IMG/VR virus record: IMGVR_UViG_3300011691_000001 | DNA: 59,431 bases | Strand: one strand, 5' to 3' | DNA from: an uncultured virus (IMG/VR IMGVR_UViG_3300011691_000001) | Taxonomy: Duplodnaviria > Heunggongvirae > Uroviricota > Caudoviricetes | In this document: positions 245-36,924 of the stretch, piece after piece | Position numbering within the stretch: position 1 is the first letter of the stretch | Layout of the letters: each line of letters begins with the position of its first letter | The notes under the pieces: model-generated | Told to the model about the DNA's origin: nothing | What the model saw: the letters and a program-made list of their open reading frames with translations, nothing else | Databases searched by the model: none | Made by a program: the position numbers and the translations under genes

Positions 245-287
245 ATAACAGCCGTCTATTATTTAATTAAGGAGTGTGTAATTTATA

Positions 288-575
288 ATGTTGGCAGCAG
301 AGGCGAGAAAATTAAGTGAAAGCAATAAGCAACAATATAATGAGTGGCTACAAAGAGCTATTGAGAAGATTAAAAAAGCTTCACTAAATGGTGAAAACAA
401 AGTATTTATATACTTAGGGGAGGGCAGCTACCACAATAAAGAATTTTCGAAAATGCTCAACGCAAAAGAACAGATATTGAGGAATTTGGGATATAAAACA
501 TGTAAAGAAATGGAATCATCTTGGAGTTCTATATTCTATAAGACATTTAAATACTGGTTAAAGGTTGAATGGTGA
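288..575 (+). CDS. hypothetical phage protein
   Basis: 95-aa ORF with AAGGAG RBS, flanked by palindromes. Confidence 0.7.
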   Translation: MLAAEARKLSESNKQQYNEWLQRAIEKIKKASLNGENKVFIYLGEGSYHNKEFSKMLNAKEQILRNLGYKTCKEMESSWSSIFYKTFKYWLKVEW

Positions 576-628
576 TAGTAAAATTAAAAATTACATAAAT
601 CAGATTTATTATTGAAAGGAGAGTTTAT

Positions 629-1060
629 ATGAAATTTCTAGAAGTTAAAGGTGATTTATTTAAAGTTTCCAATGAACATGTGTTGGTTCATTGTATAAGT
701 GCTGATTGTAAAATGGGTGCAGGAATTGCGGTAGAATTTGTTAAACGCTATCCTTCTATGAGAAATTTATTACTGAGTATGAAACCAGAGGTAGGGCAAG
801 CTTTATATTACAATGGTGCAAATAAACGTTTTGTTATTAATCTTATAACAAAGGAAAGATATTACCATAAACCCACTAGAGACAATTTTAATAAGACAAT
901 TCTGGATATGAAGCGTGTTATTGATTTTTATAATATCCAAAAGATTGCAATGCCGTTAATTGGCAGTGGACTGGATCGATTAAATTGGGATGAAAGTAGT
1001 AAATTTATTCAAGAAACATTCGTAGATACAGACATTGAAATATTAGTGGTGAAACTGTGA
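629..1060 (+). CDS. macrodomain protein (TARG1/Poa1/DarG-like ADP-ribose hydrolase)
   Basis: Motifs KGDLF, VHCISADCKMGAGIA, NLITK, MPLIGSGLDRLNW typical of TARG1-class macrodomains. Confidence 0.88.
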   Translation: MKFLEVKGDLFKVSNEHVLVHCISADCKMGAGIAVEFVKRYPSMRNLLLSMKPEVGQALYYNGANKRFVINLITKERYYHKPTRDNFNKTILDMKRVIDFYNIQKIAMPLIGSGLDRLNWDESSKFIQETFVDTDIEILVVKL

Positions 1061-1101
1061 TTTAATAAAAGAGATATATTAATGAAAGGAGATGGTTTAT
1101 T

Positions 1102-1314
1102 ATGTCTAAAGTTACCATCAAAGAATATAATGGTGGCGTGTCTTCAGGAGGAAAGAGTGAATGTGTAATCGATAATTTAGAGATTGTATGTGACACGTCA
1201 AAAGGAAAGCAGGAAGTATTAGTTTATATTAATAATGAGGTTGTTTTTGGTCGAGATTTTTCCAGAGTGGGAAGACTAATTAAAAATCATGTTCAAGTCT
1301 ATGATGAAAATTGA
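1102..1314 (+). CDS. hypothetical phage protein
   Basis: ORF with AAAGGAG RBS. Confidence 0.6.
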   Translation: MSKVTIKEYNGGVSSGGKSECVIDNLEIVCDTSKGKQEVLVYINNEVVFGRDFSRVGRLIKNHVQVYDEN

Positions 1315-1351
1315 ATAATAGGAATCTATTATAGGAACGGAGTAAATCAAG

Positions 1352-1519
1352 ATGAATAACAAATTAAGTATTCGTATAAATGGCAAACTGTCTAATCGAT
1401 ATTCTAAGAGAGAAGTGGATAATTTGTTGTTTGCTATAAATGATTATATTGGATTAAATGATCAATTAAAGCAGCATATAAACAAAGGAGTGATTAAATG
1501 TTTAAAATTATTCCAGTAA
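1352..1519 (+). CDS. small hypothetical protein (55 aa, MNNKLSIRING...)
   Basis: Translated by hand; GGAG RBS upstream. Confidence 0.5.
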   Translation: MNNKLSIRINGKLSNRYSKREVDNLLFAINDYIGLNDQLKQHINKGVIKCLKLFQ

Positions 1520-1728
1520 TGCAGTATCAAAACACATTCTCCGCAAATCTATACTTTCAAGGAAGGAATGTAGGAGGCATTGGTAAGGACAAAGAAGGGA
1601 TATATGTGAACTTAAACAAAAGACTCAATGTTTCTCAGATGTCTGAATTGATAAAAACTATTAATGGTATTAATGAGAACTTTGATAAAGAGGAATTGAA
1701 GTTTCAGTATGCTGAGGATTTTTCATAA
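1498..1728 (+). CDS. hypothetical phage protein
   Basis: ORF with AAAGGAG RBS. Confidence 0.6.
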   Translation: MFKIIPVMQYQNTFSANLYFQGRNVGGIGKDKEGIYVNLNKRLNVSQMSELIKTINGINENFDKEELKFQYAEDFS

Positions 1729-1752
1729 AAACTAAATATTATTTAATACATA

Positions 1753-1971
1753 ATGAAAGGAAGTATAATATCTATGGCGTCTTTAAACAATGAAACCAAC
1801 CCATATAAAACTGTTAAGAAATTCATTAAGGAACGTGGGTATAGTTATCATGTAGGTGATGTAGTGGAAGGTTACTATAAAAGACTTGAAGGCTATTATA
1901 ACAGCTATACTATGAATGACTGTATTGATCATTTAGAAGATGAGTTAAAGCAGTTGATGGACAGGTATTAA
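1753..1971 (+). CDS. hypothetical phage protein
   Basis: ORF between two palindromes. Confidence 0.55.
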   Translation: MKGSIISMASLNNETNPYKTVKKFIKERGYSYHVGDVVEGYYKRLEGYYNSYTMNDCIDHLEDELKQLMDRY

Positions 1972-2008
1972 ATAAAAGGTAAGTATTATGGAAAGGAGTG
2001 ATGTATTC

Positions 2009-2152: not shown

Positions 2153-2206
2153 ATATTACATAATATTTAACTATTATTAAATACATGAATATGGAGGAGG
2201 ATAATT

Positions 2207-2590
2207 ATGAAATACTTATATAAATTTTATTGGAATTGTGGTAGAAGTGGTAACTTAGAAGGCTTATTTGTAGCGACAGAAAAAGAAGTGGAGGATGCAA
2301 TTGGAAAAGAAGCTTACTTTGGAGAAGTTTTAGGTAAGCATAGTGAAGTTTATGGAACCATCAATGAAAGAGATATTAGAAAGTTAGACGTATCTCCAGA
2401 AGCAATAGCAGAAATGTGTAAATATTTAAATGGAACTTGGAGTGGATTTAATCCATTGAGATATGTCAAATCTACATGCGATGAATGTGAAGAAAGTTAT
2501 AGAGATGATGAGTGGGATTGTGAATACCGTGAAGAATTTGGTAGAACATTGTGTTATGAATGTATGGAAGAGTTAAAAAGCATTAAATAA
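2207..2590 (+). CDS. hypothetical phage protein with C-terminal CxxC pairs
   Basis: GGAGG RBS; CDEC...CYEC. Confidence 0.7.
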   Translation: MKYLYKFYWNCGRSGNLEGLFVATEKEVEDAIGKEAYFGEVLGKHSEVYGTINERDIRKLDVSPEAIAEMCKYLNGTWSGFNPLRYVKSTCDECEESYRDDEWDCEYREEFGRTLCYECMEELKSIK

Positions 2591-2625
2591 AAGGAACATT
2601 TTAATAAAATAAATACATAAATAAC

Positions 2626-2654
2626 TTTACTTTGTATTAAAAATAACTTATACT
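2626..2654 (+). promoter_or_regulatory. sigma-A-type promoter for the repression operon
   Basis: TTTACT-N17-TATACT, preceded by AAATACATAA. Confidence 0.6.
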
Positions 2655-2686
2655 GTTAATAATAAGAGTATAAGGGGGAAGTTGTA

Positions 2687-3739
2687 GTGGTAGCTTTGAA
2701 TACAGTCAAGTTGGAAAATTATATCGGTGATCACATTGAAGCCTTCTTAAATGAATACAAATCAAATTCAATACACAGTTATAAGAGTTACAAAAGCAGC
2801 TTGAACAAATTATTTAAAGATATATTAAATAAAAGCGACTTTAAATTCATAACGGTTTCTGATATAGAAGGATTGACGGTACATGTATTAAAAGAATACT
2901 TCAATACGTTACATGAAGAAGTAAATACTGATGATGAACCGAAGCATAAAAATTCAACAATAAATAAGCACATTTCGGTTATAAAGAAGTTCATTGAGTA
3001 TTTAGCAGCTTGGGATATAATTTCATATGATGTAAATAAGCTATCACTACTTAAATTCTTCCCTGATACAAGAGAAGAAATTGAAATGATACCATTTGAA
3101 TTAGCAATGAAGTACACTTCTTACTTTAGAAGTGAGGATCAAGGGTTGGAAAAACAATTAATAATTAAATTAGCTATTGAAACTGCTCTTAGAGCAACCG
3201 AATTATTAGAGTTGAAGTGGAGTAACTTTACAGTTGTTGAAGATGGTGTAATCATGAAATCTCATGGAAATAATAAAGGTAAAGGGAATAAAGAGTGGAT
3301 TGATAAAATAAATAAAGAATTATACGAAGAACTTTTACATTTAAAGTACTTAGGGAATGATCATAAGTTATTTACTCTCACATACAAACAATTAACTGGT
3401 ATGATGGATAGAGGAAATGAACTTTTAAATGACACTGGAGTTAAATATTCATTCCATTCATTTAAAAAATTAGCTGTGACAATGTGTTACTTAAATAATA
3501 ACAACTGTATTGATACTGCAATGAAGAAAGCTCGTCACAGTAATGTTAATACGACTATGAGGTATCTTCGATTAACAAATTTAAATGTTACTGGTATAAT
3601 ATCATCTAAATTAAATACGGAACAAGATATTTATAAAACAGTATCATACGAATTACTTTTAGAAGCATTAAGTGAAATGCGTCCAGAAATGCTTCTACTT
3701 TTAAATAATAAAATAAAAAATAAGAAAAATAATATGTAA
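2687..3739 (+). CDS. tyrosine recombinase family protein (SPbeta YopP/SroD-like)
   Basis: ETALRATEL (R), KGK (K), FHSFKK (HxxK), ARHSN (H), TMRY (Y); first gene of the trio. Confidence 0.85.
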   Translation: MVALNTVKLENYIGDHIEAFLNEYKSNSIHSYKSYKSSLNKLFKDILNKSDFKFITVSDIEGLTVHVLKEYFNTLHEEVNTDDEPKHKNSTINKHISVIKKFIEYLAAWDIISYDVNKLSLLKFFPDTREEIEMIPFELAMKYTSYFRSEDQGLEKQLIIKLAIETALRATELLELKWSNFTVVEDGVIMKSHGNNKGKGNKEWIDKINKELYEELLHLKYLGNDHKLFTLTYKQLTGMMDRGNELLNDTGVKYSFHSFKKLAVTMCYLNNNNCIDTAMKKARHSNVNTTMRYLRLTNLNVTGIISSKLNTEQDIYKTVSYELLLEALSEMRPEMLLLLNNKIKNKKNNM

Positions 3740-3802
3740 TAATTAATGAAAAAATAATTACTAGATGATAAAATATCATTTGTAATTAAGGGAGGGAAAT
3801 TA

Positions 3803-5143
3803 ATGAAATTAGGTAAAGATAATGAACAATTAGAGATTGAAGTTAAAAGTTTAATAAATGCTTTTTCATCTAATGTAGACAAAGATGAAGTAGATTTAAT
3901 TGTTGAACACCTAAATATGAAACATGGTATTGAAAGTGCTAAGATTTATTCCTTATTTAACAATGTTAATAATGTAAGTAAGTTAGAATTTGAAGAGATT
4001 GCATTATTTGGGCAGCAATTAGTCGTTAAATTAGGAATGAACCAGAGTGAATGGATGAATGAATGGTTTACTGATCGTGAACAAAAAGAAATTGGTGGAT
4101 ATCAATTTGTAGGATCTTCATCAACAGATATTATTGATTTCCCAATGACAATTCATAATGTAACTGACTTAGGTGATGGTTATTATAATGCAACCCTGAC
4201 AAGAAAAGAATTGGCTAGATTATATAAATCAGGAAAGTTAGATTATAACGCCAATGTTCAACGTGGTATGAAGAAAGTTGTTCGGTTTGGCGTAGAAATA
4301 GAGAAGCCAATTATTTATCAAAGTAAAATTACTCAAATTAGAAATGAAATTTTAAAAGGTGTTTTAAGACCAACTACAATTACACTTAATGCACATCAAA
4401 TGACTGCTCTAGAAGGGGTAGAACTTGTATACGATGATAAAAATCATACTCTAAAAATAAATGAAGGTACTGTTTTAGATATTGTTGATGGAATGCATAG
4501 GCTATTAGGTAATTACAGTGCTTATAATAAAGACTCTAATATCAAAGGTTCTTTCCCAATAACAATTTCTAATAAATCAGATGCTGAAGTTAAGAGATAT
4601 CAAGTTGATCTGGATAAACATACTCCACTATCAAGAAGTCGAGTAGAAGAGTTAGATAATAAATCATATTCAAATGAAGTTGTGAATATTTTAAAAGTAG
4701 AGGGACAACTGAAAAATAGAATAACATCTGCAAGTGATGCTAAGTCATCTATAAAAGGTAGTGACTTTACGACATATAAGATAATTAATACGCAAATAAA
4801 TAATGTATTTAAACTAGAGAGTATATTAGACGCAAGAAAACTAGCAAAATCTATTAATGAATATTTGGTTTACTTATTTGGAATTTATAAAAAATATATT
4901 GTTAGTGATTATAACCTAATATTTGACGCAGATGTATTTGAAGGACACTTACATTTAATCAAGTTAATGAATGATGAAGGTGTATCTTATGAAAAGATAG
5001 AAGATATTATAGATATAAATGAATTCCATAAGTCAGAATCCAAATTAAGTAAAATTATTAATGGGAATATGAAATTAAATGCAAAAGACCGCAAAGCATT
5101 GATTAAATTATTTACAGATATGTATAAGAAAGGCGTGAAGTGA
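3803..5143 (+). CDS. DGQHR/DndB/ParB-fold protein (SPbeta YopQ/SroE-like)
   Basis: VQRG and IVDGMHRL motifs; synteny between two recombinase-fold genes. Confidence 0.75.
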   Translation: MKLGKDNEQLEIEVKSLINAFSSNVDKDEVDLIVEHLNMKHGIESAKIYSLFNNVNNVSKLEFEEIALFGQQLVVKLGMNQSEWMNEWFTDREQKEIGGYQFVGSSSTDIIDFPMTIHNVTDLGDGYYNATLTRKELARLYKSGKLDYNANVQRGMKKVVRFGVEIEKPIIYQSKITQIRNEILKGVLRPTTITLNAHQMTALEGVELVYDDKNHTLKINEGTVLDIVDGMHRLLGNYSAYNKDSNIKGSFPITISNKSDAEVKRYQVDLDKHTPLSRSRVEELDNKSYSNEVVNILKVEGQLKNRITSASDAKSSIKGSDFTTYKIINTQINNVFKLESILDARKLAKSINEYLVYLFGIYKKYIVSDYNLIFDADVFEGHLHLIKLMNDEGVSYEKIEDIIDINEFHKSESKLSKIINGNMKLNAKDRKALIKLFTDMYKKGVK

Positions 5144-6129
5144 TTATGTATAATGAGGAATACAAGAAATCATTTCTTGAAACATTAAATTTATCTGAAT
5201 CATCTTTGAAAACCTACTACTCAATATTTAATAAAACAGAACCGTTTGAACGAAAACATGAAACTGATTTATACGACATGGATAATTCCATGTTGGATCT
5301 ATTATTTAGGCAAGCGAAAAGACAAACAAAAAGGTCAGCAATTATATTTATTAATACTATTAAAAACTATATTACATGGGCAATTGATAACGGACATAGT
5401 GCTTCACCAACACACCCTATTGTAGATGTTATCAATGACGAATACGTTTCTACTTATGTATGGAATGCAGGTAAAAATTATTATAATAGAGAAGAACTAC
5501 TTAAAAAAATTGAATTACTGGATAACAACAGAGACATGGCTATTGTACTTTTATTGTTTGAAGGTATAGTTGGATCTTCATTTTCTGAAATAAGAAACTT
5601 AAGAATAGATGATATAACTACAAAAGATGATAAATTCTTTTTGAATGTACTTTCTGATGAAATAAACTTAACGAGTAGACAAATTGAAATTACAAAAGAA
5701 CTACATGATTTATTAATCAAAACATATAATACATCTGAAATAAAAAGTCCTAGTGGGAAAATGGCTCGATTAGTTGACGGGGAATATATATTTAGAAAAA
5801 ATAGACTTGGAAAAGATAATGATGTTCGTATAACTCCATCTATGATAAGTACTATAATAATGCAGCGAATAAAAGACTCATTTAGTGACAGTAACATTAC
5901 TGCAACTACTATAGAGATAAGCGGCATGATGTGGTATGCAAATGAATGGATGAACGAAAAGGGAAATCGAATCTTTGATTTAAATATTGTTGAAAAACTA
6001 GTTAAAAAATATAATTTAAGTACAATAAGCTTGAATAATAAAGAATATCCTCAGCTACAAAGGATCAGAGAAACAATGGATTTTGACTATATGCAAGATG
6101 AATTTGGTCACTTTGAAGTAAAAATATAG
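5140..6129 (+). CDS. MrpR (YopR/SroF)-like lytic-cycle master repressor, catalytically degenerate tyrosine-recombinase fold
   Basis: MYNEEYKKSFL N-terminus; LLFEGI..SEIRNLR lacks catalytic R and HxxR; synteny. Confidence 0.78.
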   Translation: MIMYNEEYKKSFLETLNLSESSLKTYYSIFNKTEPFERKHETDLYDMDNSMLDLLFRQAKRQTKRSAIIFINTIKNYITWAIDNGHSASPTHPIVDVINDEYVSTYVWNAGKNYYNREELLKKIELLDNNRDMAIVLLLFEGIVGSSFSEIRNLRIDDITTKDDKFFLNVLSDEINLTSRQIEITKELHDLLIKTYNTSEIKSPSGKMARLVDGEYIFRKNRLGKDNDVRITPSMISTIIMQRIKDSFSDSNITATTIEISGMMWYANEWMNEKGNRIFDLNIVEKLVKKYNLSTISLNNKEYPQLQRIRETMDFDYMQDEFGHFEVKI

Positions 6130-6141
6130 AAAACAGAAAGA

Positions 6142-9318: not shown

Positions 9319-10020
9319 ATGGATAAAATAATTATTTATACTGATGGAGCATGTTCAGGTAATCAAAATGAAACTAACTATGGTGGTTGGGGAGTAGTGT
9401 TAAGACAAGGTGAAAATACAAAAGAATTGTTTGGTGGAGCAGTAAATACAACGAATAATAAGATGGAATTACAAGGAGCTATTGAAGGACTAAAAGCGTT
9501 AAATAAAACTAATATTCCAGTAGAGTTGTATTCAGATAGTAATTATGTGATTCAAGGTATTACTTCTTGGATTCATGGATGGAAAAAGAATGGTTGGAAG
9601 AATGCAAGCAAGAAACCTGTTGAAAATAAAGAATTGTGGATCGAATTAGATGAATTAAAAAGCAAATTTAAGGACATTCAATTCATTAAGGTTAAAGGTC
9701 ATAACGGAGTGGAATTAAATGAATTAGCGGATGATCTAGCTAACAAGGGAGTTGAACAAGCTAAATTAGATTCAAAAAATGCAGTAAACGAAATTAAAGA
9801 AGTGATCAAAGAGGAAATAGCCCAGAGCCATATAAGTATATGGGACAAATTAAAATTACAAATTGATAATCTAGAGATAATGTACAAACAATCTTTATCA
9901 GGAGCAGATATTGGTACATCTGTTTATTGGCAAGTTGAAACAATCAATGAAATTTTAAAAGGATTAGAAGAGCAAGTAGGTGCTGATAAAGTACGAGAAA
10001 AGTATACCGAAGCTTTTTGA
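9319..10020 (+). CDS. rnhA: ribonuclease HI with C-terminal extension
   Basis: YTDGACSGN, TTNNKMEL, SDSNYV, WKKNGWK, VKGH, NELAD. Confidence 0.9.
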   Translation: MDKIIIYTDGACSGNQNETNYGGWGVVLRQGENTKELFGGAVNTTNNKMELQGAIEGLKALNKTNIPVELYSDSNYVIQGITSWIHGWKKNGWKNASKKPVENKELWIELDELKSKFKDIQFIKVKGHNGVELNELADDLANKGVEQAKLDSKNAVNEIKEVIKEEIAQSHISIWDKLKLQIDNLEIMYKQSLSGADIGTSVYWQVETINEILKGLEEQVGADKVREKYTEAF

Positions 10021-10057
10021 TAATACCACTCTATTATTAAAAAAGGAGAAGATGTAG

Positions 10058-10982: not shown

Positions 10983-11021
10983 ATAAAAGTGGAATTTTAT
11001 ATAAATAAATACATAAAACTA

Positions 11022-12338: not shown

Positions 12339-12384
12339 AATTAAATAAAAGAATTATATTATAGAAATAAAAAAAAGGATGATC

Positions 12385-12662: not shown

Positions 12663-12848
12663 ATTAAGTTTTATCAGTTGCTTGAGGTAATTAGTACGAA
12701 ACAAATATTAACAATAATAATTGAGGGAATTCCAATATTCTCTGGGTTCGTTCAGCATATATCTGTAGATGATTTAGACATAAGGAATAAAGAAGTAGTA
12801 TGTATTATTACAACTTGGGATGGAACTTTGAAAATAGAGCTTCAATAA
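12663..12848 (+). CDS. hypothetical protein with probable ATT start
   Basis: Open frame after GGAGG RBS, ending in palindrome 12845. Confidence 0.4.
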   Translation: MKFYQLLEVISTKQILTIIIEGIPIFSGFVQHISVDDLDIRNKEVVCIITTWDGTLKIELQ

Positions 12849-12878
12849 AAAATAAGTATTATCGAAAGGAAACTGATA

Positions 12879-13125: not shown

Positions 13126-13296
13126 ATGAGCTTAGATGGTTTTAAGTCCCATGTATTGAGAGAAATCGATACTCTTTATAAACAGTCAGAGAAGAGTAAT
13201 TTTGTTGCTAAATCATCAGAAGAGTTCAATAGGTTTGTATTTTTAAATGAAATTCTTGATGAATTAGAATTGTATGAGAAGAACGAAGTTAAATAA
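13126..13296 (+). CDS. small hypothetical protein (56 aa)
   Basis: GAGGTGA RBS; stop codon inside palindrome 13293. Confidence 0.55.
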   Translation: MSLDGFKSHVLREIDTLYKQSEKSNFVAKSSEEFNRFVFLNEILDELELYEKNEVK

Positions 13297-13326
13297 TAAT
13301 TCACTTTTATAAAAGGAGAGATAGTA

Positions 13327-13578: not shown

Positions 13579-13788
13579 ATAATAGTGCGATTTTATTTAA
13601 AAGGGGTGAATAAGTTGAAATTAAAAGGATTTCTATACAATTGTACTCCAAGGCTAGAAAACACTAGATACTACTACATTTTCAGATGGTTTGGATATGA
13701 ATTAGTTATTAATAAATAAAAATACATAATTAAAACTAAATAAAATACACGTTTTATTAAAAATACATAAGAAAAAGGAGATGATAAA

Positions 13789-14455: not shown

Positions 14456-14492
14456 ATAATAATCACATTTTATAAAAATTGGAGGAAGATAG

Positions 14493-15059: not shown

Positions 15060-15081
15060 TTAAATAAATACATAAAATAAC

Positions 15082-15109
15082 TTGAAATATAGAATAGTGG
15101 TGTTATACT
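15082..15109 (+). promoter_or_regulatory. sigma-A-type promoter
   Basis: TTGAAA-N16-TATACT with TG; near-identical context at 31492-31519. Confidence 0.6.
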
Positions 15110-16193: not shown

Positions 16194-16346
16194 AATTATC
16201 GAACCATAACCGATGTAAATAATTAAAATTTATCTATTGTTAGGTAATATATAAATAACACATGTTCTCAACTCATCAAATGTTCTCAATAAAATCCTAA
16301 TATTATTTAAGCTTTAGTTAGGTATATTGTGATTGGTTCGATAATT
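16194..16346. repeat. 13-bp perfect inverted repeat enclosing an AT-rich non-coding segment
   Basis: AATTATCGAACCA (16194-16206) / TGGTTCGATAATT (16334-16346); internal ATGTTCTCAA direct repeat. Confidence 0.7.
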
Positions 16347-25900: not shown

Positions 25901-25969
25901 AAATGGTTGCCTACTGATATCATGCAGACATGGTTAACTTCATGGCAGAAAGTAGAAATTAATAAATAA
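22925..25969 (+). CDS. dnaE: DNA polymerase III alpha subunit
   Basis: PHP HKHTHYS, TEHG, GRGSA, LPDIDF, YGFNSSHS. Confidence 0.93.
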   Translation: MRYNNYHKHTHYSNVHTPDSIAKVEDYAKRAIELGHTSLATTEHGYAGNIFEYYDVAKKYGLKFVFGIEYYYVNDRFEKDKTNSHLMVLAKNKNGMKQMLKIMSEASKTGYYYKPRIDKKLLFSLNPEDVVVTSTCVISYINKYDDYEENFVIPLMEYFGENFYLEIHDNTHPMQVEYNKAILELHNKYKIPFIHATDSHYIYAEDDKYRTIFLNGKGIFYPEEEGFILDYPDSNTIFDRYEEQGVFTREQVESSLKNTWIIDDFEDIEMDKEIKMPSLYPELSHEEKVKKLKNVINHEWIKDREHIANEDYQKYIEAIRLETSIIEDTKMEDYFLLNYEIIKRAKELGGVLTRTGRGSAPSFYVNKLLGFTEIDRLEAPITLYPTRFMSKSRIIESKSLPDIDFNTANPKPFIQASREILGEDNVYYMTAYGTMQASSAFRNLCRSYGYNMDEYNEVAKDLDRYKNHEKWKDVIEESQRFIGVIDSVAPHPCANILLSESVSEEIGVIKVGDELCVLIDSTTSDTWKFLKNDYLSVTVWDIIAETYKMLDQPIPNIRELNSLMMNNSKMWDLYEKGLTATLNQVGTESGTSQVMQYKPKSVRELSGFVAAIRPSFESMKHLFLDRKEFSYGIPEFDKILETSDNFVLYQENIMETLVYSGFNEDETYSLLKAIAKKKEGIIEPIYERFINGFTEKTGSQENAQKVWKIIEDAVAYGFNSSHSLSVAYDSLYGAYLKANYPLEYYAVVLNIYEDNTEMTARIYKELSHFKIKVVSPLFGKARSKYSVDKVNNQIVKGMKSIKFVNDLVSEQLYELAQIKQHENFIDLLVDITSDTKVNTRQLNILIRLGFFREFGNSKYLELLSAKFTERYKKSHKEETKLKRLEEIQLYELEIKDIEDYHISEKVVFEKEALGYSQSTDKKYDLSYAVVTEVDTKYAPSIKLYLVNNGIEMILRVQKNIFFDENKEAFLKVGDMIKVTQVEKKPKMQKVVGKWLPTDIMQTWLTSWQKVEINK

Positions 25970-25995
25970 AATACATAACAAAAGGTGGAATATAA

Positions 25996-26229
25996 ATGTT
26001 TAATGAACTATCTAAATACTTTTCGGAATCAAAACACAATCATCCAATTAGTAATTATGCTTTGAAAGACAAAGTAATTGTACTTGAGCATAAAGGTGAA
26101 GGGTTAACTAGAATGATTTATTCTTATCAAATGGAAAGTGTTATTGAAATATTTGAATCGAACAGGAATAACACATCATCACTATATATTTTTGATTTGG
26201 GCAAAGTAAATTATTTAAATAAAAATTAA
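25996..26229 (+). CDS. hypothetical protein
   Basis: AAGGTGG RBS. Confidence 0.55.
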   Translation: MFNELSKYFSESKHNHPISNYALKDKVIVLEHKGEGLTRMIYSYQMESVIEIFESNRNNTSSLYIFDLGKVNYLNKN

Positions 26230-26246
26230 ATTTTATTAAAAGGGAG

Positions 26247-26537
26247 ATGTTAGTTATATTAAAAGAGGCTAAATTAATCGGAGAATTAACAAGTAAAAGC
26301 GGAGAATTGATTGGGATATCATTAAAAAGTGTCAAAAAAGCTATTAAGAATCATGTTGTTAAACGGATTAACTTCTTGGAGACAGCATTAAAGTACACTA
26401 ATAAAACAACCTCAAAGAATAAAATTAAAAAACAACTTATTTATTTAAATGTAAAATTAAATGAGATGAATATGTACGATAAAATGGACGAGTATTTAAA
26501 TTCAGTTAATGAGTTCGCCAAAACTGGTACTAAATAA
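26247..26537 (+). CDS. hypothetical protein
   Basis: ORF between palindromes 26219 and 26534. Confidence 0.55.
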   Translation: MLVILKEAKLIGELTSKSGELIGISLKSVKKAIKNHVVKRINFLETALKYTNKTTSKNKIKKQLIYLNVKLNEMNMYDKMDEYLNSVNEFAKTGTK

Positions 26538-26580
26538 AAGAAACCTATTAATAAAACTAATAATGAAAGAGAGTGGTTTT

Positions 26581-27252: not shown

Positions 27253-27636
27253 GTAGTTTTAACAAAAGAAATGTGTTATTGAAAGTAGGCGATCTAATGG
27301 TATTCGACAAGATGATTGAAAAATTAAGGAATGGTATAGACATAGAGTTGGAAACTATTGATATAACTGAAGAATTTCAATGTGAATATGAGAGGTATCA
27401 AGAAAGAGCGAAAGACAGATATGCTGATGAAAAATTAGATTAAATAATATTCATCTTTTATTAAATAGTGAGGTAATGTAATGCGAGCGACTACTTCATA
27501 TGCACTAATATGGATTGCTGTAGGATTAACTATCTCTGTAGGAATGATTGTTTCTAATAGCTTGATGCCATTAAGGGCTTTCTTATTTCCTGCAATGATA
27601 TCAATGAAAGATTGAATTTGAAAATACATAAACAAA

Positions 27637-28050: not shown

Positions 28051-28099
28051 TAGAAGTTAAATAAAACACGCATTTTATAAAAGTATTAGGAGGAATTAA

Positions 28100-29038: not shown

Positions 29039-29083
29039 TTAAATAATATCACACTATTACTTAAATTAGAAGGAGATGGGATT

Positions 29084-29359
29084 ATGACAAAATATCGTAA
29101 AAAGCCTGTAGAGATTGAAGCGTTCCGATGGACTGGTGGTCATGAACAAGTAGAAGATCCAAAATAGATTATCGATGCTATTGAAAAAGGTGAAGTGTGG
29201 TTTATTGGCTCAAATGACACTTCTAGGTACATGCAAATAGATACACTAGAAGGAGTTATGACTGCTAACAAAGGCGATTATATTATTCAAGGTGTACAAG
29301 GCGAGATTTACCCATGTAAGCCAGATATTTTTGAAATGACTTATGAAATCGTTGAATAA
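29084..29359 (+). pseudogene. conserved small phage protein (KYRKKPV...GDYII...YPCKPDIFE family) with in-frame TAG
   Basis: TAG at 29165-29167; the frame continues intact to TAA at 29359. Confidence 0.75.
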
Positions 29360-29390
29360 AAGATTAGTATTATTAAATACATAAACGGAG

Positions 29391-29883: not shown

Positions 29884-29925
29884 TTAAAATGACAATATTA
29901 TTTAAGAAAGGAGAATAGAGAGCGT

Positions 29926-30186
29926 ATGAATGATTTTATGATTGAAGTATTGTCAGTCAGTACACAAATCTCAGCATTATTAATCATTTCGATTGGTTGT
30001 TTAACTGTTATCGCTTTGCTTTTATATCCACTATGGTATTTGATGAGTACGGTTCTATATAAGCGTACTAAAGGCGTAGTTTATTTTGTGCAATTTGTTA
30101 GATATAAAAAGCAATTTATTAAATGGTATAAAGAGCAGCGACCAGATGTACATAAAGGAGAAGTTAAAAACGATTTGTTTAAATAA
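29926..30186 (+). CDS. small membrane protein, paralog of 13789-14043
   Basis: Clear sequence similarity; flanked by palindromes 29884 and 30183. Confidence 0.75.
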   Translation: MNDFMIEVLSVSTQISALLIISIGCLTVIALLLYPLWYLMSTVLYKRTKGVVYFVQFVRYKKQFIKWYKEQRPDVHKGEVKNDLFK

Positions 30187-30315
30187 TATTTTGATTTTAT
30201 AAAAGAAAATACATATAAGAAAGAAGGGAGTTTATTTCTGCATAATGAAGCGCACAATTTAAAGTTGTCATAAGAGCTTCAGATGAGATAAATCTTGTAG
30301 AGAATAAGCGAATAA

Positions 30316-31462: not shown

Positions 31463-31491
31463 AAATTAATTAAATAAATACATAATAATAC

Positions 31492-31519
31492 TTGAAATAT
31501 TAGAACGTGATGATATAAT
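31492..31519 (+). promoter_or_regulatory. sigma-A-type promoter for the nucleotide metabolism operon
   Basis: TTGAAA-N16-TATAAT with TG, preceded by TAAATAAATACATAA. Confidence 0.65.
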
Positions 31520-33221: not shown

Positions 33222-35319
33222 TAATTTGAAAGAGTACTTAAAGTTGAATAATGAGGTTTTAAATACATATGAACGAACTGGAAGATTAGTATCAGAAAAA
33301 GATAAAGAAGCAACTAGGAAGTACTTCTTAGAGCATGTGAATGTTAAGTTACGATACTTTATTGATCTAGAAGAAAAACTTAAATACCTTGTGTCAGAAG
33401 GTTATTATGAAAAAGAATTCTTAGACATGTACTCATTTGATTTCATTAAGAAAATCTATAAGATTGCATATTCATATAATTTCCGTTTCCCTTCATTTAT
33501 GAGTGCAAGCAAATTCTATGATAGTTATGCAATGAAGAGTCGTGATGGGGAGGAAATCTTAGAAAAATACGAGGATAGAATTTCTATAATTGCATTGTAC
33601 CTTTCCCAAGGTGATGAGCATCTAGCAGAGAAATCAGTAAGGGTAATGATGGAAGCCTATCAACCTGCGACACCTACTGCCTTAAATAGTGGTAAGAAAG
33701 CTCGTGGCGAATTAGTAAGTTGCTTTAAATTATCCATGGATGACTCCATGAATAGCATCGCTGAAAATATTGGTTATTGTTTAGAGCTATCACGTCTAGG
33801 TGGAGGGGTCGGGGTCAACTTAACTGATTTACGTCCTTTAGGTGATCCAATTAAAGAAATACTAAATCGTGCAAGTGGTGTGATTCCAGTGGCGAAGCTA
33901 TTAGAAAATTCTTTTAGTTATTCTAATCAGCTTGGTCAACGTAATGGCTCAGGAGTTGTTTACCTAAATATTTTCCATGCAGATATAGAGAATTTTATTT
34001 CATCAAAAAAACCAAATGCTGATGATAAAATTCGCCTCGCAACACTATCAACAGGTATTATTATACCAAGTATTTTCTTTGAGTTAATGAAAAAGGATAA
34101 GGATATTGTTCTATTTAGCCCATATGACATCCATAAGGAATATGGCAAGCGTATGTCTGAAATCAGTATTACTGATATGTACTATGAGTTACTAGATAAT
34201 CCTAGAATTCGAAAAATTAAACGTCTAAATGCACGTAATTTATACACTGAAGTAAAAAAAGCACAATTTGAATCAGGATATCCTTTTGAAATATTTGATG
34301 ATAATGTAAACGAAGTACATCCACTCAAAGGTATTGGACGAGTACAAATGTCTAACCTCTGTTCGGAAATCCTACAATTACAACAAAAAAGTATTATCAC
34401 TGATCAAGATCAGCCTAACGAATATGGGTTAGATGTGTCATGTAATTTAGGGTCGATTGATATTCATGCAGCAGTTGAATCAGATAGCTTTGAAGATTTA
34501 ATTGACACATCAATGCGGTTACTTACAAATGTTACAACAAAGACCAATATTGTGAATGTACCATCTGTTGCAAAAGCCAATCAATTAATGCATTCCGTAG
34601 GTTTGGGAGTTATGAACCTTCATGGTCATTTAGCAACACAAGATATTATGTACGGCTCTCCTGATTCGATTAAATTTGTAGATCATTTTATGGAAGCGTT
34701 GAACTATTACTCACTTAAATCATCAATGGTGTTAGCTAAAGAAAAATGCGAAAGTTTCTTTGGATTTGAGAAGAGTGAATATGCGAATGGCAAATACTTT
34801 GATGCGTATGTTTCCAAAGAAGACACATTACCAAATCAGAAAGTGCAAAAAGCACTAGGTAACGTACCAATTATAACTTCTGCGATGTGGAAGAAACTTA
34901 AATTAGAAGTAATGAAATTTGGTCTATTTCATTCATATCGTTTAGCTACTGCACCTACAGGAAGTATCAGTTATATTCGAAGTTGTACAGCATCAATGTC
35001 TCCGATTACTGAAAGAGTAGAAATTCGTGATTATGCTGATAGTCGTACAATTTATCCTATGCCATACATGACTAATGACAATATGCATTTATATCAAGAA
35101 GCATACGATGTTAACCCTTATAAATTAATTGATTTATATGCTGCGGCACAAAAACATGTTGACCAAGGTATTTCAATGACACTATATGTAACGGATCAAT
35201 GGACAACAGAACAACTAGCTAAAGTTTACATTTATGCATGGATTAAAGGGATTAAGTCCGTTTACTATGTCCGTCAACGATTACTGAGCTTAGAGGAGTG
35301 TGTAGCATGTCAAATATAG
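33214..35319 (+). CDS. nrdE: class Ib ribonucleotide reductase alpha subunit
   Basis: QPATPT, VSCF, SNLCSE, APTGSISY, C-terminal CVAC. Confidence 0.95.
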   Translation: MSDNLKEYLKLNNEVLNTYERTGRLVSEKDKEATRKYFLEHVNVKLRYFIDLEEKLKYLVSEGYYEKEFLDMYSFDFIKKIYKIAYSYNFRFPSFMSASKFYDSYAMKSRDGEEILEKYEDRISIIALYLSQGDEHLAEKSVRVMMEAYQPATPTALNSGKKARGELVSCFKLSMDDSMNSIAENIGYCLELSRLGGGVGVNLTDLRPLGDPIKEILNRASGVIPVAKLLENSFSYSNQLGQRNGSGVVYLNIFHADIENFISSKKPNADDKIRLATLSTGIIIPSIFFELMKKDKDIVLFSPYDIHKEYGKRMSEISITDMYYELLDNPRIRKIKRLNARNLYTEVKKAQFESGYPFEIFDDNVNEVHPLKGIGRVQMSNLCSEILQLQQKSIITDQDQPNEYGLDVSCNLGSIDIHAAVESDSFEDLIDTSMRLLTNVTTKTNIVNVPSVAKANQLMHSVGLGVMNLHGHLATQDIMYGSPDSIKFVDHFMEALNYYSLKSSMVLAKEKCESFFGFEKSEYANGKYFDAYVSKEDTLPNQKVQKALGNVPIITSAMWKKLKLEVMKFGLFHSYRLATAPTGSISYIRSCTASMSPITERVEIRDYADSRTIYPMPYMTNDNMHLYQEAYDVNPYKLIDLYAAAQKHVDQGISMTLYVTDQWTTEQLAKVYIYAWIKGIKSVYYVRQRLLSLEECVACQI

Positions 35320-36281
35320 TTTATGAGGCAGTCAACTGGAATAAGACATCAAGTGAACTTGCTCAAGTTTTCTGGGATCAGCAATGGAAGCAAATCTGGT
35401 TTCCTGAAGAAATTGCAGTGAGTAAAGATATTCAACAGTGGAAAAGTTTTGAGCATCAGGGCACGTATAAAAAAGTGTTCGCAGGATTAACTTTACTTGA
35501 TACTGTCCAGACAAATATAGGAATGAATCGCGTTGCAGCTTATACAGACGATTTACAGGAAAAGGCGGTATTAACTGTTTTTGATGCATTTGAAGCAATT
35601 CATGCTAAATCATATTCGTATATATTTACAACGCTCTGTACAAATAAGGAAATAGAAGAACTCTTTGAATGGATTAAAAAGAATGAATTTCTACAATACA
35701 AGGCAAATAAAATTGCAGATATTTATACATCAATTAAAGAAAATGACAATGAATCTTTATGGAAAGCAATGTTTGCTTCAGTAATGTTGGAGAGCTTCTT
35801 ATTTTATTCAGGATTCTTCTATCCATTATATTTAGGTGGACAAGGGGTATTGCGTAATAGCGCAGAGATAATTTCGCTTATATTACGAGATGAATCTATA
35901 CATGGCGTAGCTGTTGGATTTTTTGCACAAGGTATTTTCAGCAAGTTTGACGCTGAAAAGCAAAACGAATTAAAAGTATGGGGATATGAATTGTTACTAG
36001 ACTTATATCAAAATGAAATGAAATACACTGACGACATCTATGCAGAGACAGGATTAAGTCCTGATGTTAAAGCTTATGTAAGATATAACGCTAACAAAGC
36101 CTTAATGAATCTTGGATTAGATACTATGTTCCCAGACGAGGAAGTTAATCCTATAGTAATGAACGGTATTCGTAATGAAGGAAGTACCTATGACTTCTTT
36201 TCACAAAAGGGAGCTACCTATGCTAAAGCTAAAGTAGTACCAATTAGCGATGACACATTTAACTTTTCAAACTTAAATTAA
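35307..36281 (+). CDS. nrdF: class Ib ribonucleotide reductase beta subunit
   Basis: GLTLLDT, EAIHAKSYS, ESFLFYSGF, RDESIHG. Confidence 0.95.
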   Translation: MSNIVYEAVNWNKTSSELAQVFWDQQWKQIWFPEEIAVSKDIQQWKSFEHQGTYKKVFAGLTLLDTVQTNIGMNRVAAYTDDLQEKAVLTVFDAFEAIHAKSYSYIFTTLCTNKEIEELFEWIKKNEFLQYKANKIADIYTSIKENDNESLWKAMFASVMLESFLFYSGFFYPLYLGGQGVLRNSAEIISLILRDESIHGVAVGFFAQGIFSKFDAEKQNELKVWGYELLLDLYQNEMKYTDDIYAETGLSPDVKAYVRYNANKALMNLGLDTMFPDEEVNPIVMNGIRNEGSTYDFFSQKGATYAKAKVVPISDDTFNFSNLN

Positions 36282-36298
36282 AAGGGGAAATCTTTATT

Positions 36299-36799
36299 AT
36301 GAATTTAAATGACACATTATATTTCGCAAAAGTAAAAGAAAATGCAGTTATTCCAACTAAACGAAAAGAAGATGGATGTTATGACATCTATATATTGTTT
36401 AATGAGGATGAAGTAACAATTAAACCGCACGAAATTGTTGGATTTAATACAGGAATTGCAACAGCAGTGAGTTACAAGTATCGTCTTGACTTCAAACGTG
36501 AACGTGGTTCAACAGGATCAATTGGTTTAGTACCTCGATGTGGACAAGTGGATAGTGGATATCGTGGTGAAGTTTTCTTAAAACTACAAAATACAACTAA
36601 TAAAAACATTGTAATTTCTAAGTTAGTTACTGATAAAGTAGAAACTAAAACAGAAGTTAAATATCCAATTACTAAAGCAGTTTGTCAAATGGCAGTTGAA
36701 ATTGTACCAGAAGTAATAGAAGAAGTGATTTCTTATGAAGAATTATTAAAGATTCCATCTGAACGTGGTACAGGTGCTTTAGGTAGTAGTGGTAAATAA
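36299..36799 (+). CDS. dut: trimeric dUTPase
   Basis: GQVDSGYRGE, RGTGALGSSG. Confidence 0.9.
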   Translation: MNLNDTLYFAKVKENAVIPTKRKEDGCYDIYILFNEDEVTIKPHEIVGFNTGIATAVSYKYRLDFKRERGSTGSIGLVPRCGQVDSGYRGEVFLKLQNTTNKNIVISKLVTDKVETKTEVKYPITKAVCQMAVEIVPEVIEEVISYEELLKIPSERGTGALGSSGK

Positions 36800-36924
36800 T
36801 AAAATCTATATTGTATATATGATAATTTGAAATATTTAGTGGTATTAATATCATATTTGTATCACTGAATTTCAATAAAACATGGATATTATTAAAAATA
36901 CATAACTAAGGGGAGATTGATTTA

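What the first reader, a model, noticed from the sequence alone, without database searches (positions are those of the whole stretch)
245..36892. Palindromic ATAAWA-N6-TWTTAT sites punctuate accessory genes like cassette boundaries
Seen: exact copies of ATAA[AT]A-N6-T[AT]TTAT start at 1315, 1725, 1972, 2160, 10020, 10983, 12345, 12845, 13293, 13579, 13740, 14456, 16289, 26219, 27444, 28061, 29356, 30183, 36875, 44170 and 58708. One-mismatch copies start at 245, 595, 1065, 2587, 26534, 29043 and 29884. Most overlap or directly follow a stop codon (often the TAA lies in the left arm) and precede the next RBS. They cluster in the small-ORF regions (0-2.6, 10-14.5, 26-30 kb), and I saw none at junctions inside the replication or nrd operons. 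Every 6-bp spacer is different. Known: two inverted arms around a 6-8 bp spacer is tyrosine-recombinase core-site geometry, and some enzymes (Tn916 Int, integron IntI) tolerate unequal spacers. Inference: these may be recombination sites of an integron-like phage gene-cassette system, with the recombinase at 2687-3739 next to the densest array as candidate enzyme. The alternative is operators for the recombinase-fold MrpR-like repressor (compare the SPbeta SPBRE element).
Basis: partly seen in the sequence, partly recalled or inferred. Interest (0 to 1): 0.88.

Follow-up and report, generated by a model that had tools for sequence, protein, structure and literature searches.

The report
Conserved palindrome at phage gene junctions
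A 26-base AT-rich palindrome sits between the stop codon of one small gene and the ribosome-binding site of the next dozens of times in this large Bacillus-type phage and in its relatives including SPbeta; it looks like a protein-binding junction signal whose binder is still unknown, not an integron-like recombination site.

Summary
All 21 exact ATAAWA-N6-TWTTAT copies are at the stated coordinates, against 0.40 expected. Only the 6-bp spacing is enriched. 18 copies lie in 4.6 kb of gene junctions, against 0.11 in shuffles. The site is really a 26-bp palindrome, TTNAATAAWA-N6-TWTTATNNAA. The same phage contig carries 18 more copies left of the window.

The same core, ATRAAA-N6-TTTYAT, is enriched in SPbeta, Perkons, E3 and Tsamsa. 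It is not enriched in five other phages.

It is not the SPBRE/MrpR operator. That element is a different sequence, and its analogue here is a second junction motif, TTAAATAA-ATACATAA.

The arms do not covary and no hairpin is predicted. It is therefore a double-stranded DNA site for a dimeric protein.

Relatives' genomes do break at these sites, but at their edges and never in the spacer. They break about as often at the non-palindromic motif. In SPbeta versus phi3T, breaks at palindromes are no more frequent than the palindromes' share of gene junctions predicts.

Best reading: an operator-like junction module that also serves as microhomology for gene shuffling. The binder is unidentified. 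Integron-like recombination is unsupported but not excluded.

The parts
245..262 (.). palindrome, 1 mismatch
   Evidence: starts right after the stop, 25 nt before the next start
595..612 (.). palindrome, 1 mismatch
1065..1082 (.). palindrome, 1 mismatch
1315..1332 (.). palindrome, exact
   Evidence: 37-nt junction
1725..1742 (.). palindrome, exact, followed by an ATACATA box
1972..1989 (.). palindrome, exact
2160..2177 (.). palindrome, exact
2587..2604 (.). palindrome, 1 mismatch, upstream of the ATACATA box and promoter-like site of the recombinase-fold operon
10020..10037 (.). palindrome, exact
   Evidence: 37-nt junction
10983..11000 (.). palindrome, exact; relatives' similarity starts at 10978, 10979 and 11002 in three runs
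12345..12362 (.). palindrome, exact, after the sigma-like gene and before a terminator-like hairpin at 12374-12393
12845..12862 (.). palindrome, exact
13293..13310 (.). palindrome, exact
13579..13596 (.). palindrome, exact; a relative's similarity ends at 13602
13740..13757 (.). palindrome, exact, flanked by ATACATA boxes at 13722 and 13763
14456..14473 (.). palindrome, exact; relatives' break points at 14451 and 14455
16289..16306 (.). palindrome, exact, in the 184-nt gap before the replication genes
26219..26236 (.). palindrome, exact; same left arm and spacer as the copy in relative L007, which lacks gene 25996-26229
26534..26551 (.). palindrome, 1 mismatch; stop codon in the left arm, RBS and a TTG start follow
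27444..27461 (.). palindrome, exact
   Evidence: 37-nt junction
28061..28078 (.). palindrome, exact; a relative's joint at 28055
29043..29060 (.). palindrome, 1 mismatch, before an RBS and a short ORF starting at 29084
29356..29373 (.). palindrome, exact, followed by an ATACATA box
29884..29901 (.). palindrome, 1 mismatch
30183..30200 (.). palindrome, exact, followed by an ATACATA box
36875..36892 (.). palindrome, exact, followed by an ATACATA box; in one relative this copy is joined to window 13717 through the shared box
44170..44187 (.). palindrome, exact, in the plasmid-like module
58708..58725 (.). palindrome, exact, between two minus-strand late genes, just upstream of the RBS of 58515-58691
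2605..2654 (+). ATACATA box (2613) about 7 nt upstream of a sigma-A-like promoter (2626-2654)
15060..15109 (+). ATACATA box (15068) plus promoter-like site 15082-15109; relatives' similarity ends at 15090 and 15091
25963..25978 (+). ATACATA box after the polymerase gene; break point in L007 and in run X3
31470..31519 (+). ATACATA box (31478) plus promoter-like site 31492-31519; 81% identical to the 15047-15136 module
39008..39069 (+). ATACATA box (39016) plus promoter-like site 39040-39069, before the serine recombinase gene
2687..3739 (+). YopP-like tyrosine-recombinase-fold protein (candidate binder)
   Evidence: Pfam Phage_integrase 2.7e-9; motif residues
3803..5143 (+). YopQ-like protein
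   Evidence: phrog_5732, 9.4e-69
5140..6129 (+). MrpR-like recombinase-fold repressor homologue
   Evidence: Pfam MrpR_N_CB 3.7e-16

Best explanation
Each palindrome is a binding site on double-stranded DNA for a dimer, or a pair, of a phage-encoded protein.

The palindrome is the core of a standard junction module: stop codon, 26-bp palindrome, often an ATACATA box, Shine-Dalgarno sequence, start codon. The phage places this module in front of small, lineage-specific early genes.

Inferred mechanism: the bound protein controls how much transcription passes from one small gene into the next. It would act as a gene-by-gene roadblock or temporal shut-off, comparable to the dispersed 'stoperators' of cluster A mycobacteriophages.

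Because dozens of near-identical modules lie in one genome and in related genomes, they also serve as short homologies at which genomes are re-joined. That makes the small genes behave like cassettes, as described for the PeSL motifs of T4-type phages.

Shown here: the site is real, strictly spaced, junction-bound, conserved across a phage lineage, not a hairpin, not SPBRE, and a frequent mosaic joint.

Inferred, not shown: that a protein binds it, which protein, and the effect on transcription. Candidate binders are the recombinase-fold proteins of this lineage (YopP-like 2687-3739, MrpR-like 5140-6129, and a YomM-like one outside the window) or an HTH protein.
For: **The site is real and strictly spaced.**
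- 21 copies against 0.40 expected.
- Only k = 6 is enriched, in the window, Perkons, SPbeta and E3.
- 18 copies against 0.11 in AT-matched junction sequence.

**It is a double-stranded DNA site, not a fold.**
- In the 39 copies of this phage the variable arm positions are complementary in only 10. The pairs are AA 15, TT 14, AT 6, TA 4, which departs from independence towards non-pairing (p = 0.004).
- In Perkons the G/A and C/T positions are independent: AC 13, GT 10, AT 9, GC 8 (p = 0.53).
- Predicted RNA MFE averages -1.03 kcal/mol against -0.71 for shuffles, and 15 of 39 copies are unfolded. ssDNA MFE averages -1.27.

**It keeps a fixed register with expression signals.**
- Stop codons lie in the left flank or arm. 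The distance from palindrome end to start codon is mostly 16 to 25 nt. A 37-nt junction recurs 5 times.
- The same layout occurs on the minus strand at 58708.

**It is specific to a phage lineage.** Counts, with the control pattern in brackets:
- Window's contig 36 (2), Perkons 40 (2), SPbeta 16 (1).
- E3 27 (0), Tsamsa 23 (2), Lactococcus PMBT69 5 (3).
- SPO1 0 (0), 0305phi8-36 0 (0), G 20 (15), SPP1 1 (0).
- The last four share host genera with the carriers, which argues for a phage-encoded factor.

**It marks mosaic joints.**
- Of 46 break points shown for three runs' contigs, 12 lie within 12 nt of a palindrome (2.3% of the sequence) and 8 lie in ATACATA/promoter modules (2.7%).
- L007 lacks gene 25996-26229, with breaks at the ATACATA box and about 10 nt before palindrome 26219.

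**Published analogues.** PeSLs (abstracts of PMC2839356 and PMC4122927). Stoperators (abstract of PMC9283540).
Against: - No binding protein is identified and no binding or expression data exist for any of these phages. No RNA run was available.
- Stoperators are asymmetric and oriented with transcription. These sites are palindromic, and their asymmetric variants occur in both orientations (15 against 14).
- If the binder were the lysogeny repressor, SPbeta's MrpR ChAP-seq should have shown it. Only SPBRE peaks were reported (PMC10516654).
- Among five protein families tested, MrpR_N_CB-like is the only one that co-occurs perfectly with the motif: 5 of 5 carriers and 0 of 5 non-carriers. That sits awkwardly with the ChAP-seq result. 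It is also confounded by shared ancestry.
- The 10-6-10 geometry fits a recombinase core site as well as it fits an operator.
- Only 15 of 86 joints and 24 of 298 loose ends were shown. Several joints rest on matches of only 20 to 35 nt.
Confidence: 0.5

Rival explanations
1. First reader's model. The palindromes are core sites of a tyrosine recombinase (YopP-like 2687-3739, or the YomM-like enzyme of the structural module). The enzyme excises, inserts or exchanges the small genes as cassettes. One variant: exchange only between copies with the same spacer in co-infecting relatives.
For: - The 10-6-10 inverted-arm geometry fits.
- This lineage carries three recombinase-fold genes (PMC9703825 section 12).
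- YopP-like keeps the first Arg, both His and the Tyr.
- In Perkons a palindrome lies 12 nt past the stop of the YomM-like gene.
- The Tyrovirus paper reports an 11-6-11 'attP' at the equivalent place.
- 12 of 46 shown break points lie at palindrome edges. An exchange inside a site with conserved arms would look like an edge break.
- L007 and the window share left arm and spacer at 26219 while the flanks differ.
Against: - 0 of 46 shown break points fall in a spacer.
- Break points are similarly enriched at the non-palindromic ATACATA and promoter modules (8 of 46). In two cases the joint is demonstrably inside such a module (13717 and 15090).
- 0 of 741 spacer pairs are identical.
- Half-site asymmetry has no consistent orientation (15 against 14), yet all genes stay co-oriented, so there is no trace of inversions.
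- The gene missing in L007 is not flanked by two palindromes.
- In SPbeta versus phi3T only 3 of 54 block ends are within 30 nt of a palindrome. 16 of about 185 junctions carry one (the junction count is my estimate from the annotation), so this is no excess over gene junctions.
- YopP-like has Lys at the second catalytic Arg in the window and in SPbeta.
- The fixed distance to the RBS points to a role in expression.
Confidence: 0.12
2. First reader's alternative. The palindromes are operators of the MrpR-like recombinase-fold repressor (5140-6129), that is, this phage's version of SPBRE.
For: - MrpR_N_CB-like proteins are present in all 5 motif-carrying phages and in 0 of 5 non-carriers tested.
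- The sites lie in junctions throughout the early region.
- MrpR is a proven DNA-binding repressor (PMC10516654, abstract and passages).
Against: - SPBRE as derived from the ten published target promoters is gACAAATACAAAwAATATGTATAta, which is not this palindrome.
- SPbeta carries both elements, and the ten ChAP-seq peaks are all at SPBRE.
- 13 of SPbeta's 16 palindromes are more than 250 bp from any SPBRE copy (my comparison).
- In the window the positional analogue of SPBRE, about 7 nt upstream of a -35, is the ATACATA box.
- The paper's supplement could not be read, so weaker peaks cannot be excluded.
Confidence: 0.12
3. No dedicated binder. The module is a repeated junction sequence kept because it supplies stop codons in two frames, an unstructured A/U-rich leader for the next RBS, or intrinsic DNA curvature. 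It spreads through the recombination it promotes.
For: - TAA occurs in two frames of the left flank and arm.
- Pairing between the arms is avoided.
- It is associated with ORFan genes and with mosaic joints.
Against: - Exact dyad symmetry with a strict 6-bp gap and invariant positions (-3 T in 39 of 39 copies; A1, T2, A4, A6) is not needed for any of these roles.
- The same core is kept in phages whose flanks differ.
Confidence: 0.1
4. The site binds a host factor common to Bacillaceae.
For: The same core occurs in phages of Bacillus subtilis, the B. cereus group, Geobacillus and Psychrobacillus.
Against: - It is not enriched in SPO1 or SPP1 (B. subtilis), 0305phi8-36 (B. thuringiensis) or G (B. 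megaterium).
- Half-site variants differ between phages: ATGAAA in Perkons, ATAATA here.
- No host genome could be scanned.
Confidence: 0.08
5. The element acts in RNA: a hairpin used as a terminator, a processing site or a translational operator.
For: - It is transcribed as part of every junction and abuts the RBS.
- 2 of SPbeta's 16 copies are annotated as stem_loop in the GenBank record.
Against: - There is no covariation, and pairing is even avoided.
- RNA MFE averages -1.03 kcal/mol against -0.71 for shuffles, with 15 of 39 copies unfolded.
- No U-tract follows the site.
Confidence: 0.04

Closest known systems
PeSL motifs (promoter-early stem-loops) of T4-type phages (abstracts of PMC2839356 and PMC4122927)
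   Same: A short conserved motif is repeated between small non-essential ORFan genes in plastic regions. Relatives differ by insertions, deletions and replacements whose ends lie at the motif. The motif's primary role is regulatory.
   Different: PeSLs consist of a strong sigma-70 promoter plus a terminator hairpin. The palindrome here contains neither. The phage lineage and host are different.
Stoperators of cluster A mycobacteriophages (abstract of PMC9283540)
   Same: Dozens of copies of one protein-binding site lie in short intergenic gaps across the genome, in addition to sites at promoters.
   Different: Stoperators are asymmetric, oriented with transcription and bound by a monomeric immunity repressor. 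The sites here are dyad-symmetric and orientation-free. In SPbeta the immunity repressor was not found on them.
SPBRE, the MrpR operator of SPbeta (PMC10516654)
   Same: Same phage lineage, intergenic and repeated. The window encodes an MrpR-like protein.
   Different: The sequence is different and not dyad-symmetric. There are about 11 copies, at promoters. Its analogue in the window is the ATACATA box, not the palindrome.
Tyrosine-recombinase core sites and integron attC sites
   Same: Two inverted arms lie around a 6-bp spacer. The sites follow open reading frames in a co-oriented array.
   Different: - No shared spacers between copies.
- No break points in spacers.
- No attC-like length or folding.
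- The distance to the RBS is fixed.
- The motif occurs in late operons too.

Membership tests
Integron cassette array (attC sites) | attC: an imperfect palindrome of roughly 60-140 bp with conserved outer core sites, active as folded single-stranded DNA (definition recalled) | tested here: not met
   The site is 26 bp and consists almost entirely of A and T outside the spacer. ssDNA MFE averages -1.27 kcal/mol and 9 of 39 copies are unfolded.
Integron cassette array (attC sites) | An integron-type integrase next to an attI site and a common promoter at one end of the array | tested here: inconclusive
   A generic Phage_integrase-fold gene lies at 2687-3739. But palindromes lie on both sides of it, for 18.7 kb to the left and 55 kb to the right. 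The integron-specific insertion was not tested.
Tyrosine-recombinase core site (dif/lox type) | Two inverted arms of about 9-13 bp around a 6-8 bp spacer | tested here: met
   TTNAATAAWA-N6-TWTTATNNAA, with only the 6-bp spacing enriched.
Tyrosine-recombinase core site (dif/lox type) | Partner sites share the spacer sequence | tested here: not met
   39 of 39 spacers are distinct here and 0 of 741 pairs are identical. In Perkons 40 of 40 are distinct.
Tyrosine-recombinase core site (dif/lox type) | A catalytically complete recombinase (Arg, His-x-x-Arg, His/Trp, Tyr) | tested here: inconclusive
   YopP-like has Arg, His-x-x-Lys, His and Tyr in the window and in SPbeta, and His-x-x-Arg in Perkons. 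MrpR-like proteins lack the first Arg. All from one six-sequence alignment read by eye.
Tyrosine-recombinase core site (dif/lox type) | Rearrangement break points inside the site | tested here: inconclusive
   12 of 46 shown break points are within 12 nt of a site and 0 are in a spacer. Conserved arms could hide an internal crossover.
SPBRE / MrpR operator | Matches the SPBRE consensus | tested here: not met
   The SPBRE derived from SPbeta's ten target promoters differs from the palindrome. SPbeta holds both elements.
SPBRE / MrpR operator | Bound by MrpR in vivo | not testable with these tools
   Published ChAP-seq in SPbeta reports ten peaks, all at SPBRE (passages). The supplement was unreadable.
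PeSL-type mobile regulatory cassette | A repeated motif between ORFan genes at which relatives' genomes are re-joined | tested here: met
PeSL-type mobile regulatory cassette | A composite of a strong promoter and a terminator hairpin | tested here: not met
   No conserved -35 lies upstream. A start site 7 nt past the right arm would fall in the RBS. No stable hairpin is predicted.
Stoperator-type dispersed operator | Many copies in short intergenic gaps genome-wide | tested here: met
   23 of 46 junctions of 20 nt or more carry one: 17 exact and 6 with one mismatch.
Stoperator-type dispersed operator | Asymmetric site with one orientation relative to transcription | tested here: not met
   The site is dyad-symmetric, and its mixed half-site forms occur 15 against 14 in the two orientations.
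Intrinsic terminator / RNA hairpin | A stable stem kept by covariation, followed by a U-tract | tested here: not met
   The right flank is WWAA.

The most novel reading that the evidence does not exclude
The palindromes are core sites for one of this lineage's conserved tyrosine recombinases (YopP-like or the late-expressed YomM-like enzyme). Each site has its own spacer, so only copies at the same address in two co-infecting or resident relatives can recombine. That would give the phage programmed crossover points at the borders of accessory genes. It would be a site-specific system for swapping gene cassettes between related genomes, distinct from integrons.
Probability: 0.1. Interest if true: 0.85.

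Novelty: new variant of a known kind. Interest (0 to 1): 0.58.

Why it matters
SPbeta is a model temperate phage, and its relatives include Tsamsa-like, E3-like and Perkons-like phages. All of them carry this strictly spaced palindrome 16 to 40 times.

I found no description of it in the papers I could search:
- Keyword finds in PMC13245101, PMC3903500, PMC9703825, PMC8270828 and PMC10516654.
- Literal-motif search.
- The original 1999 SPbeta genome paper is not in the library. Its GenBank record marks 2 of the 16 copies only as stem-loops.

If a protein binds these sites, there is a second genome-wide control layer in these phages beside MrpR/SPBRE. It would sit exactly where the ORFan genes are. 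The same modules help explain how these large phages shuffle accessory genes.

The question can be tested directly in Bacillus subtilis 168.

Tried and rejected
**Searches that gave nothing usable**
- Megablast of window 1-20000 against the phage collection: no match.
- Whole genome of the window: not held.
- Genome-contig scan with the polymerase: no relative.
- metagenome and viral scans: only the window's own contig plus three short relatives.
- PDB sequence search with the YopP-like protein: no hit.
- RNA evidence: no RNA holder listed.
- Run X5 gave only pieces of 209 nt or less, mostly about 40 nt. I left it out of the break-point count.
- Supplement of the MrpR paper: unreadable.

**Readings rejected**
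- Sigma-A promoter: there is no conserved -35, and the right arm has T at the second position of a would-be -10 in about half the copies (20 of 39 here).
- Promoter for the YonO-type polymerase: SPbeta's late genes have a single start site (PMC5467207 passage).
- HU-like protein as the specific binder: it is also present in motif-free 0305phi8-36.
- YopQ-like as required partner: it is absent from Tsamsa, which has 23 sites.
- YomM-like protein: it is also present in motif-poor PMBT69, at 31% identity, so the presence/absence pattern does not single it out.
- PHROGs and Pfam on 67 and 126 ORFs respectively found only two recognisable regulators: a sigma factor at 11718-12338 and an Xre-type HTH in the left extension.

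Full report
**What the window is.** By Pfam the window is part of a large temperate siphovirus of the SPbeta/Perkons type. It encodes:
- a YopP-like tyrosine-recombinase-fold protein (2687-3739), a YopQ-like protein (3803-5143) and an MrpR-like protein (5140-6129);
- a sigma factor (11718-12338);
- a replication block (16370-25969) and an nrdHIEF-dUTPase-thyA-DHFR block (32647-38876);
- a large serine recombinase (39127-41601);
- a plasmid-like ParM/FtsK module, and tail genes on the minus strand.

The polymerase is 79% identical to that of Psychrobacillus phage Perkons, 71% to Geobacillus virus E3 and 62% to Tsamsa-like Bacillus phages. A 52-kb IMG/VR contig is identical to window 1-33788 and runs 18.7 kb further left.

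**The observation.**
- reproduces the 21 exact coordinates, against 0.40 expected by shuffling.
- The strongest control is internal. With the same arms, only a 6-bp gap is enriched: 21 against 0 to 4 for gaps of 0 to 15.
- In the junction sequence alone (53 segments, 4574 nt, 76% AT) there are 18 sites, against 0.11 in 2000 shuffles.
- The motif extends to TTNAATAAWA-N6-TWTTATNNAA. The T at -3 is present in 39 of 39 copies and the A at +3 and +4 in 36 of 39.
- The left extension holds 18 more copies, so this phage has at least 39 in 78 kb.
- Stop codons lie in the left flank or arm in 16 of 26 junction copies. The RBS follows the right arm at once. Five junctions are exactly 37 nt long.
- Of 46 plus-strand junctions of 20 nt or more in 1-42.7 kb, 17 carry an exact palindrome and 6 a one-mismatch copy. 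24 carry a second motif (8 of them both), and only 7 carry neither.
- Genes preceded by a palindrome are mostly ORFans: 21 of 24 have no homologue in three relatives, against 28 of 45 for the others.

**A second motif.** AATACATA occurs 44 times against 8.95 expected, 38 times on the plus strand.
- In junctions it reads TTAAATAA-ATACATAA.
- At 2626, 15082, 31492 and 39040 it lies about 7 nt upstream of the -35 of the best sigma-A-like promoters.
- I derived SPbeta's SPBRE from the ten promoters that the MrpR paper names. It is gACAAATACAAAwAATATGTATAta. It shares the ATACATA half-site in the other orientation, and at aimR and yonX it also lies 7 nt upstream of a -35.
- So the ATACATA box, not the palindrome, is the likely counterpart of SPBRE.

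**The palindrome is a lineage trait.** The top inverted repeat of 6-mers in SPbeta and Perkons is the same ATAAAA-N6-TTTTAT. Whole-record counts of ATRAWA-N6-TWTYAT, with the reversed-pattern control in brackets:

| Phage | Count (control) |
|---|---|
| window's contig | 36 (2) |
| Perkons | 40 (2) |
| SPbeta | 16 (1) |
| E3 | 27 (0) |
| Tsamsa | 23 (2) |
| Lactococcus PMBT69 | 5 (3) |
| SPO1 | 0 (0) |
| 0305phi8-36 | 0 (0) |
| G | 20 (15) |
| SPP1 | 1 (0) |

- Context is the same in the relatives: intergenic and just upstream of an RBS.
- Flanks outside the 6+6 core differ between phages.
- Phages that share hosts with the carriers lack the motif. This argues for a phage-encoded partner.

**DNA site, not a fold.**
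- In this phage the two variable arm positions are complementary in only 10 of 39 copies (AA 15, TT 14, AT 6, TA 4; p = 0.004). Most sites therefore pair an ATAAAA half with an ATAATA half, in either orientation.
- In Perkons the G/A and C/T positions vary independently.
- Predicted RNA and ssDNA folds are negligible.
- This excludes a terminator, a processing hairpin or an attC-like folded site. It leaves a dimeric, possibly heteromeric, DNA-binding protein.

**Who binds?** Unknown.
- MrpR_N_CB-like proteins co-occur perfectly with the motif: 5 of 5 carriers against 0 of 5 non-carriers.
- But the published ChAP-seq in SPbeta found ten peaks, all at SPBRE. 13 of SPbeta's 16 palindromes are more than 250 bp from an SPBRE copy (my comparison).
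- YopP-like proteins are in all carriers and, weakly, in PMBT69. Here and in SPbeta they have Lys at the second catalytic Arg.
- YopQ-like is missing from Tsamsa.
- A third recombinase, YomM-like and located in the structural module, is 59% identical between Perkons and SPbeta and 67% between Perkons and E3.
  - In Perkons a palindrome lies 12 nt past its stop.
  - The Tyrovirus paper describes an 11-6-11 'attP' at the equivalent gene.
  - PMBT69 has a 31%-identical homologue without the motif.
  - This gene is not in the window.
- An Xre-type HTH gene lies in the left extension.

**Cassette behaviour.**
- L007 is 82% identical in nucleotides over the primase-polymerase block. It lacks gene 25996-26229. 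Similarity ends right after the ATACATA box at 25978. L007's next element is a palindrome with the same left arm and spacer as the window's copy at 26219.
- I laid contigs of four public runs on 9000-28999. For three of them (X5 left out) the shown tables give 46 distinct break points:

| Location of break point | Count | Share of sequence |
|---|---|---|
| within 12 nt of a palindrome | 12 | 2.3% |
| inside a spacer | 0 | 0.4% |
| ATACATA/promoter modules | 8 | 2.7% |
| other junctions | 4 | not compared |
| intragenic | 21 | not compared |
| other | 1 | not compared |

- Two joints are clearly inside the non-palindromic module.
  - One relative joins the 36875 palindrome to window 13717 through the shared box.
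  - Another joins 15090 to the 31500 promoter module. The loose-end letters match.
- In SPbeta versus phi3T, 3 of 54 block ends lie within 30 nt of a palindrome, against 0.48 at random. About 16 of 185 junctions carry one (the junction count is my estimate from the annotation), so this is no excess over gene junctions in general.
- Caveats: one search showed only 15 of 86 joints and 24 of 298 loose ends. Several joints rest on 20 to 35 nt.

**Reading.**
- The pattern fits conserved junction modules that are regulatory first. Because they are repeated, they also serve as short homologies for exchange.
- That is what the PeSL papers describe for T4-type phages.
- The phage encodes the kind of recombination genes that could do this: an AAA_24 protein at 17726-18721 and a PD-(D/E)XK nuclease at 21956-22912. 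SPbeta's AAA_24 counterpart, YorG, is annotated as a Sak4-like annealing protein.
- The closest functional model for many operator-like sites in short intergenic gaps is the stoperator, although symmetry and orientation differ.
- A true site-specific cassette system is not excluded. Edge breaks are what conserved arms would produce. But nothing seen here requires it, and several features speak against it: unique spacers, no orientation, equal use of non-palindromic modules, and the fixed register with the RBS.

**Novelty.** I found no description of this palindrome in the texts I could search. The 1999 SPbeta genome paper is not in the library, and its GenBank record labels 2 of the 16 copies as stem-loops. 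I rate the finding a new variant of a known kind.

Noticed in passing
window junctions, e.g. 2613, 6928, 8016, 11009, 15068, 25971, 31478, 36898, 37280, 39016: A second, oriented junction motif, TTAAATAA-ATACATAA. AATACATA occurs 44 times against 8.95 expected, 38 times on the plus strand. It lies about 7 nt upstream of the -35 of the best promoter-like sites and otherwise just before an RBS. It shares a half-site and this geometry with SPbeta's SPBRE, so it is the likelier MrpR-like operator.
   Followed up: partly
L015 (18.7 kb left of window position 1, reverse strand): The same phage contig continues to the left with 18 more palindromes among ORFan genes. It also holds a minus-strand Xre-type HTH gene, a YolD-like gene, a DNA ligase and a GmrSD-like gene.
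   Followed up: partly
window 2687-3739; L002:28691-29767; L004:25786-26835: The YopP-like recombinase-fold protein has Lys where the second catalytic Arg is expected in the window and in SPbeta. Perkons has Arg there. The Tyr and both His are kept in all three.
   Followed up: partly
Perkons (MT325768) record 114591-114608 (L146:14591-14608) and ORF195 at record 114621-115631 (L146:14621-15631): A palindrome lies 12 nt past the stop of the YomM-like recombinase of the structural module. This protein is 59% identical to SPbeta YomM and 67% to its E3 homologue. The 11-6-11 'attP' reported next to the equivalent Tyrovirus gene may be one copy of this dispersed family.
   Followed up: partly
window 13790-14019 vs 29927-30156; 15047-15136 vs 31457-31548: Internal paralogues: two small genes are 70% identical and each is preceded by a palindrome. 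Two ATACATA-promoter modules are 81% identical, and one relative's contig switches between them.
   Followed up: partly
window 11718-12393: A phage sigma-factor gene (Sigma70_r2, phrog_351) is followed by a palindrome and a bidirectional terminator-like hairpin. It has no homologue in Perkons, SPbeta or the held part of E3.
   Followed up: no
window 39127-49103: A large serine recombinase is followed by a YfkB-like radical-SAM gene. Next comes a plasmid-like module (actin-like ParM on the minus strand, FtsK/SpoIIIE ATPase) resembling the one described for Tyroviruses.
   Followed up: no
window 26509-27252: The cytosine-methylase ORF probably starts at the TTG near 26583, after a one-mismatch palindrome and an RBS, rather than at 26509.
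   Followed up: partly
SPbeta (NC_001884) 110881-111100: Both an SPBRE copy (110913) and a palindrome (111028) lie inside the annotated start of yorM. An RBS follows the palindrome. The real start is probably downstream, which would place the palindrome in the 5' leader of an MrpR-controlled gene.
   Followed up: no
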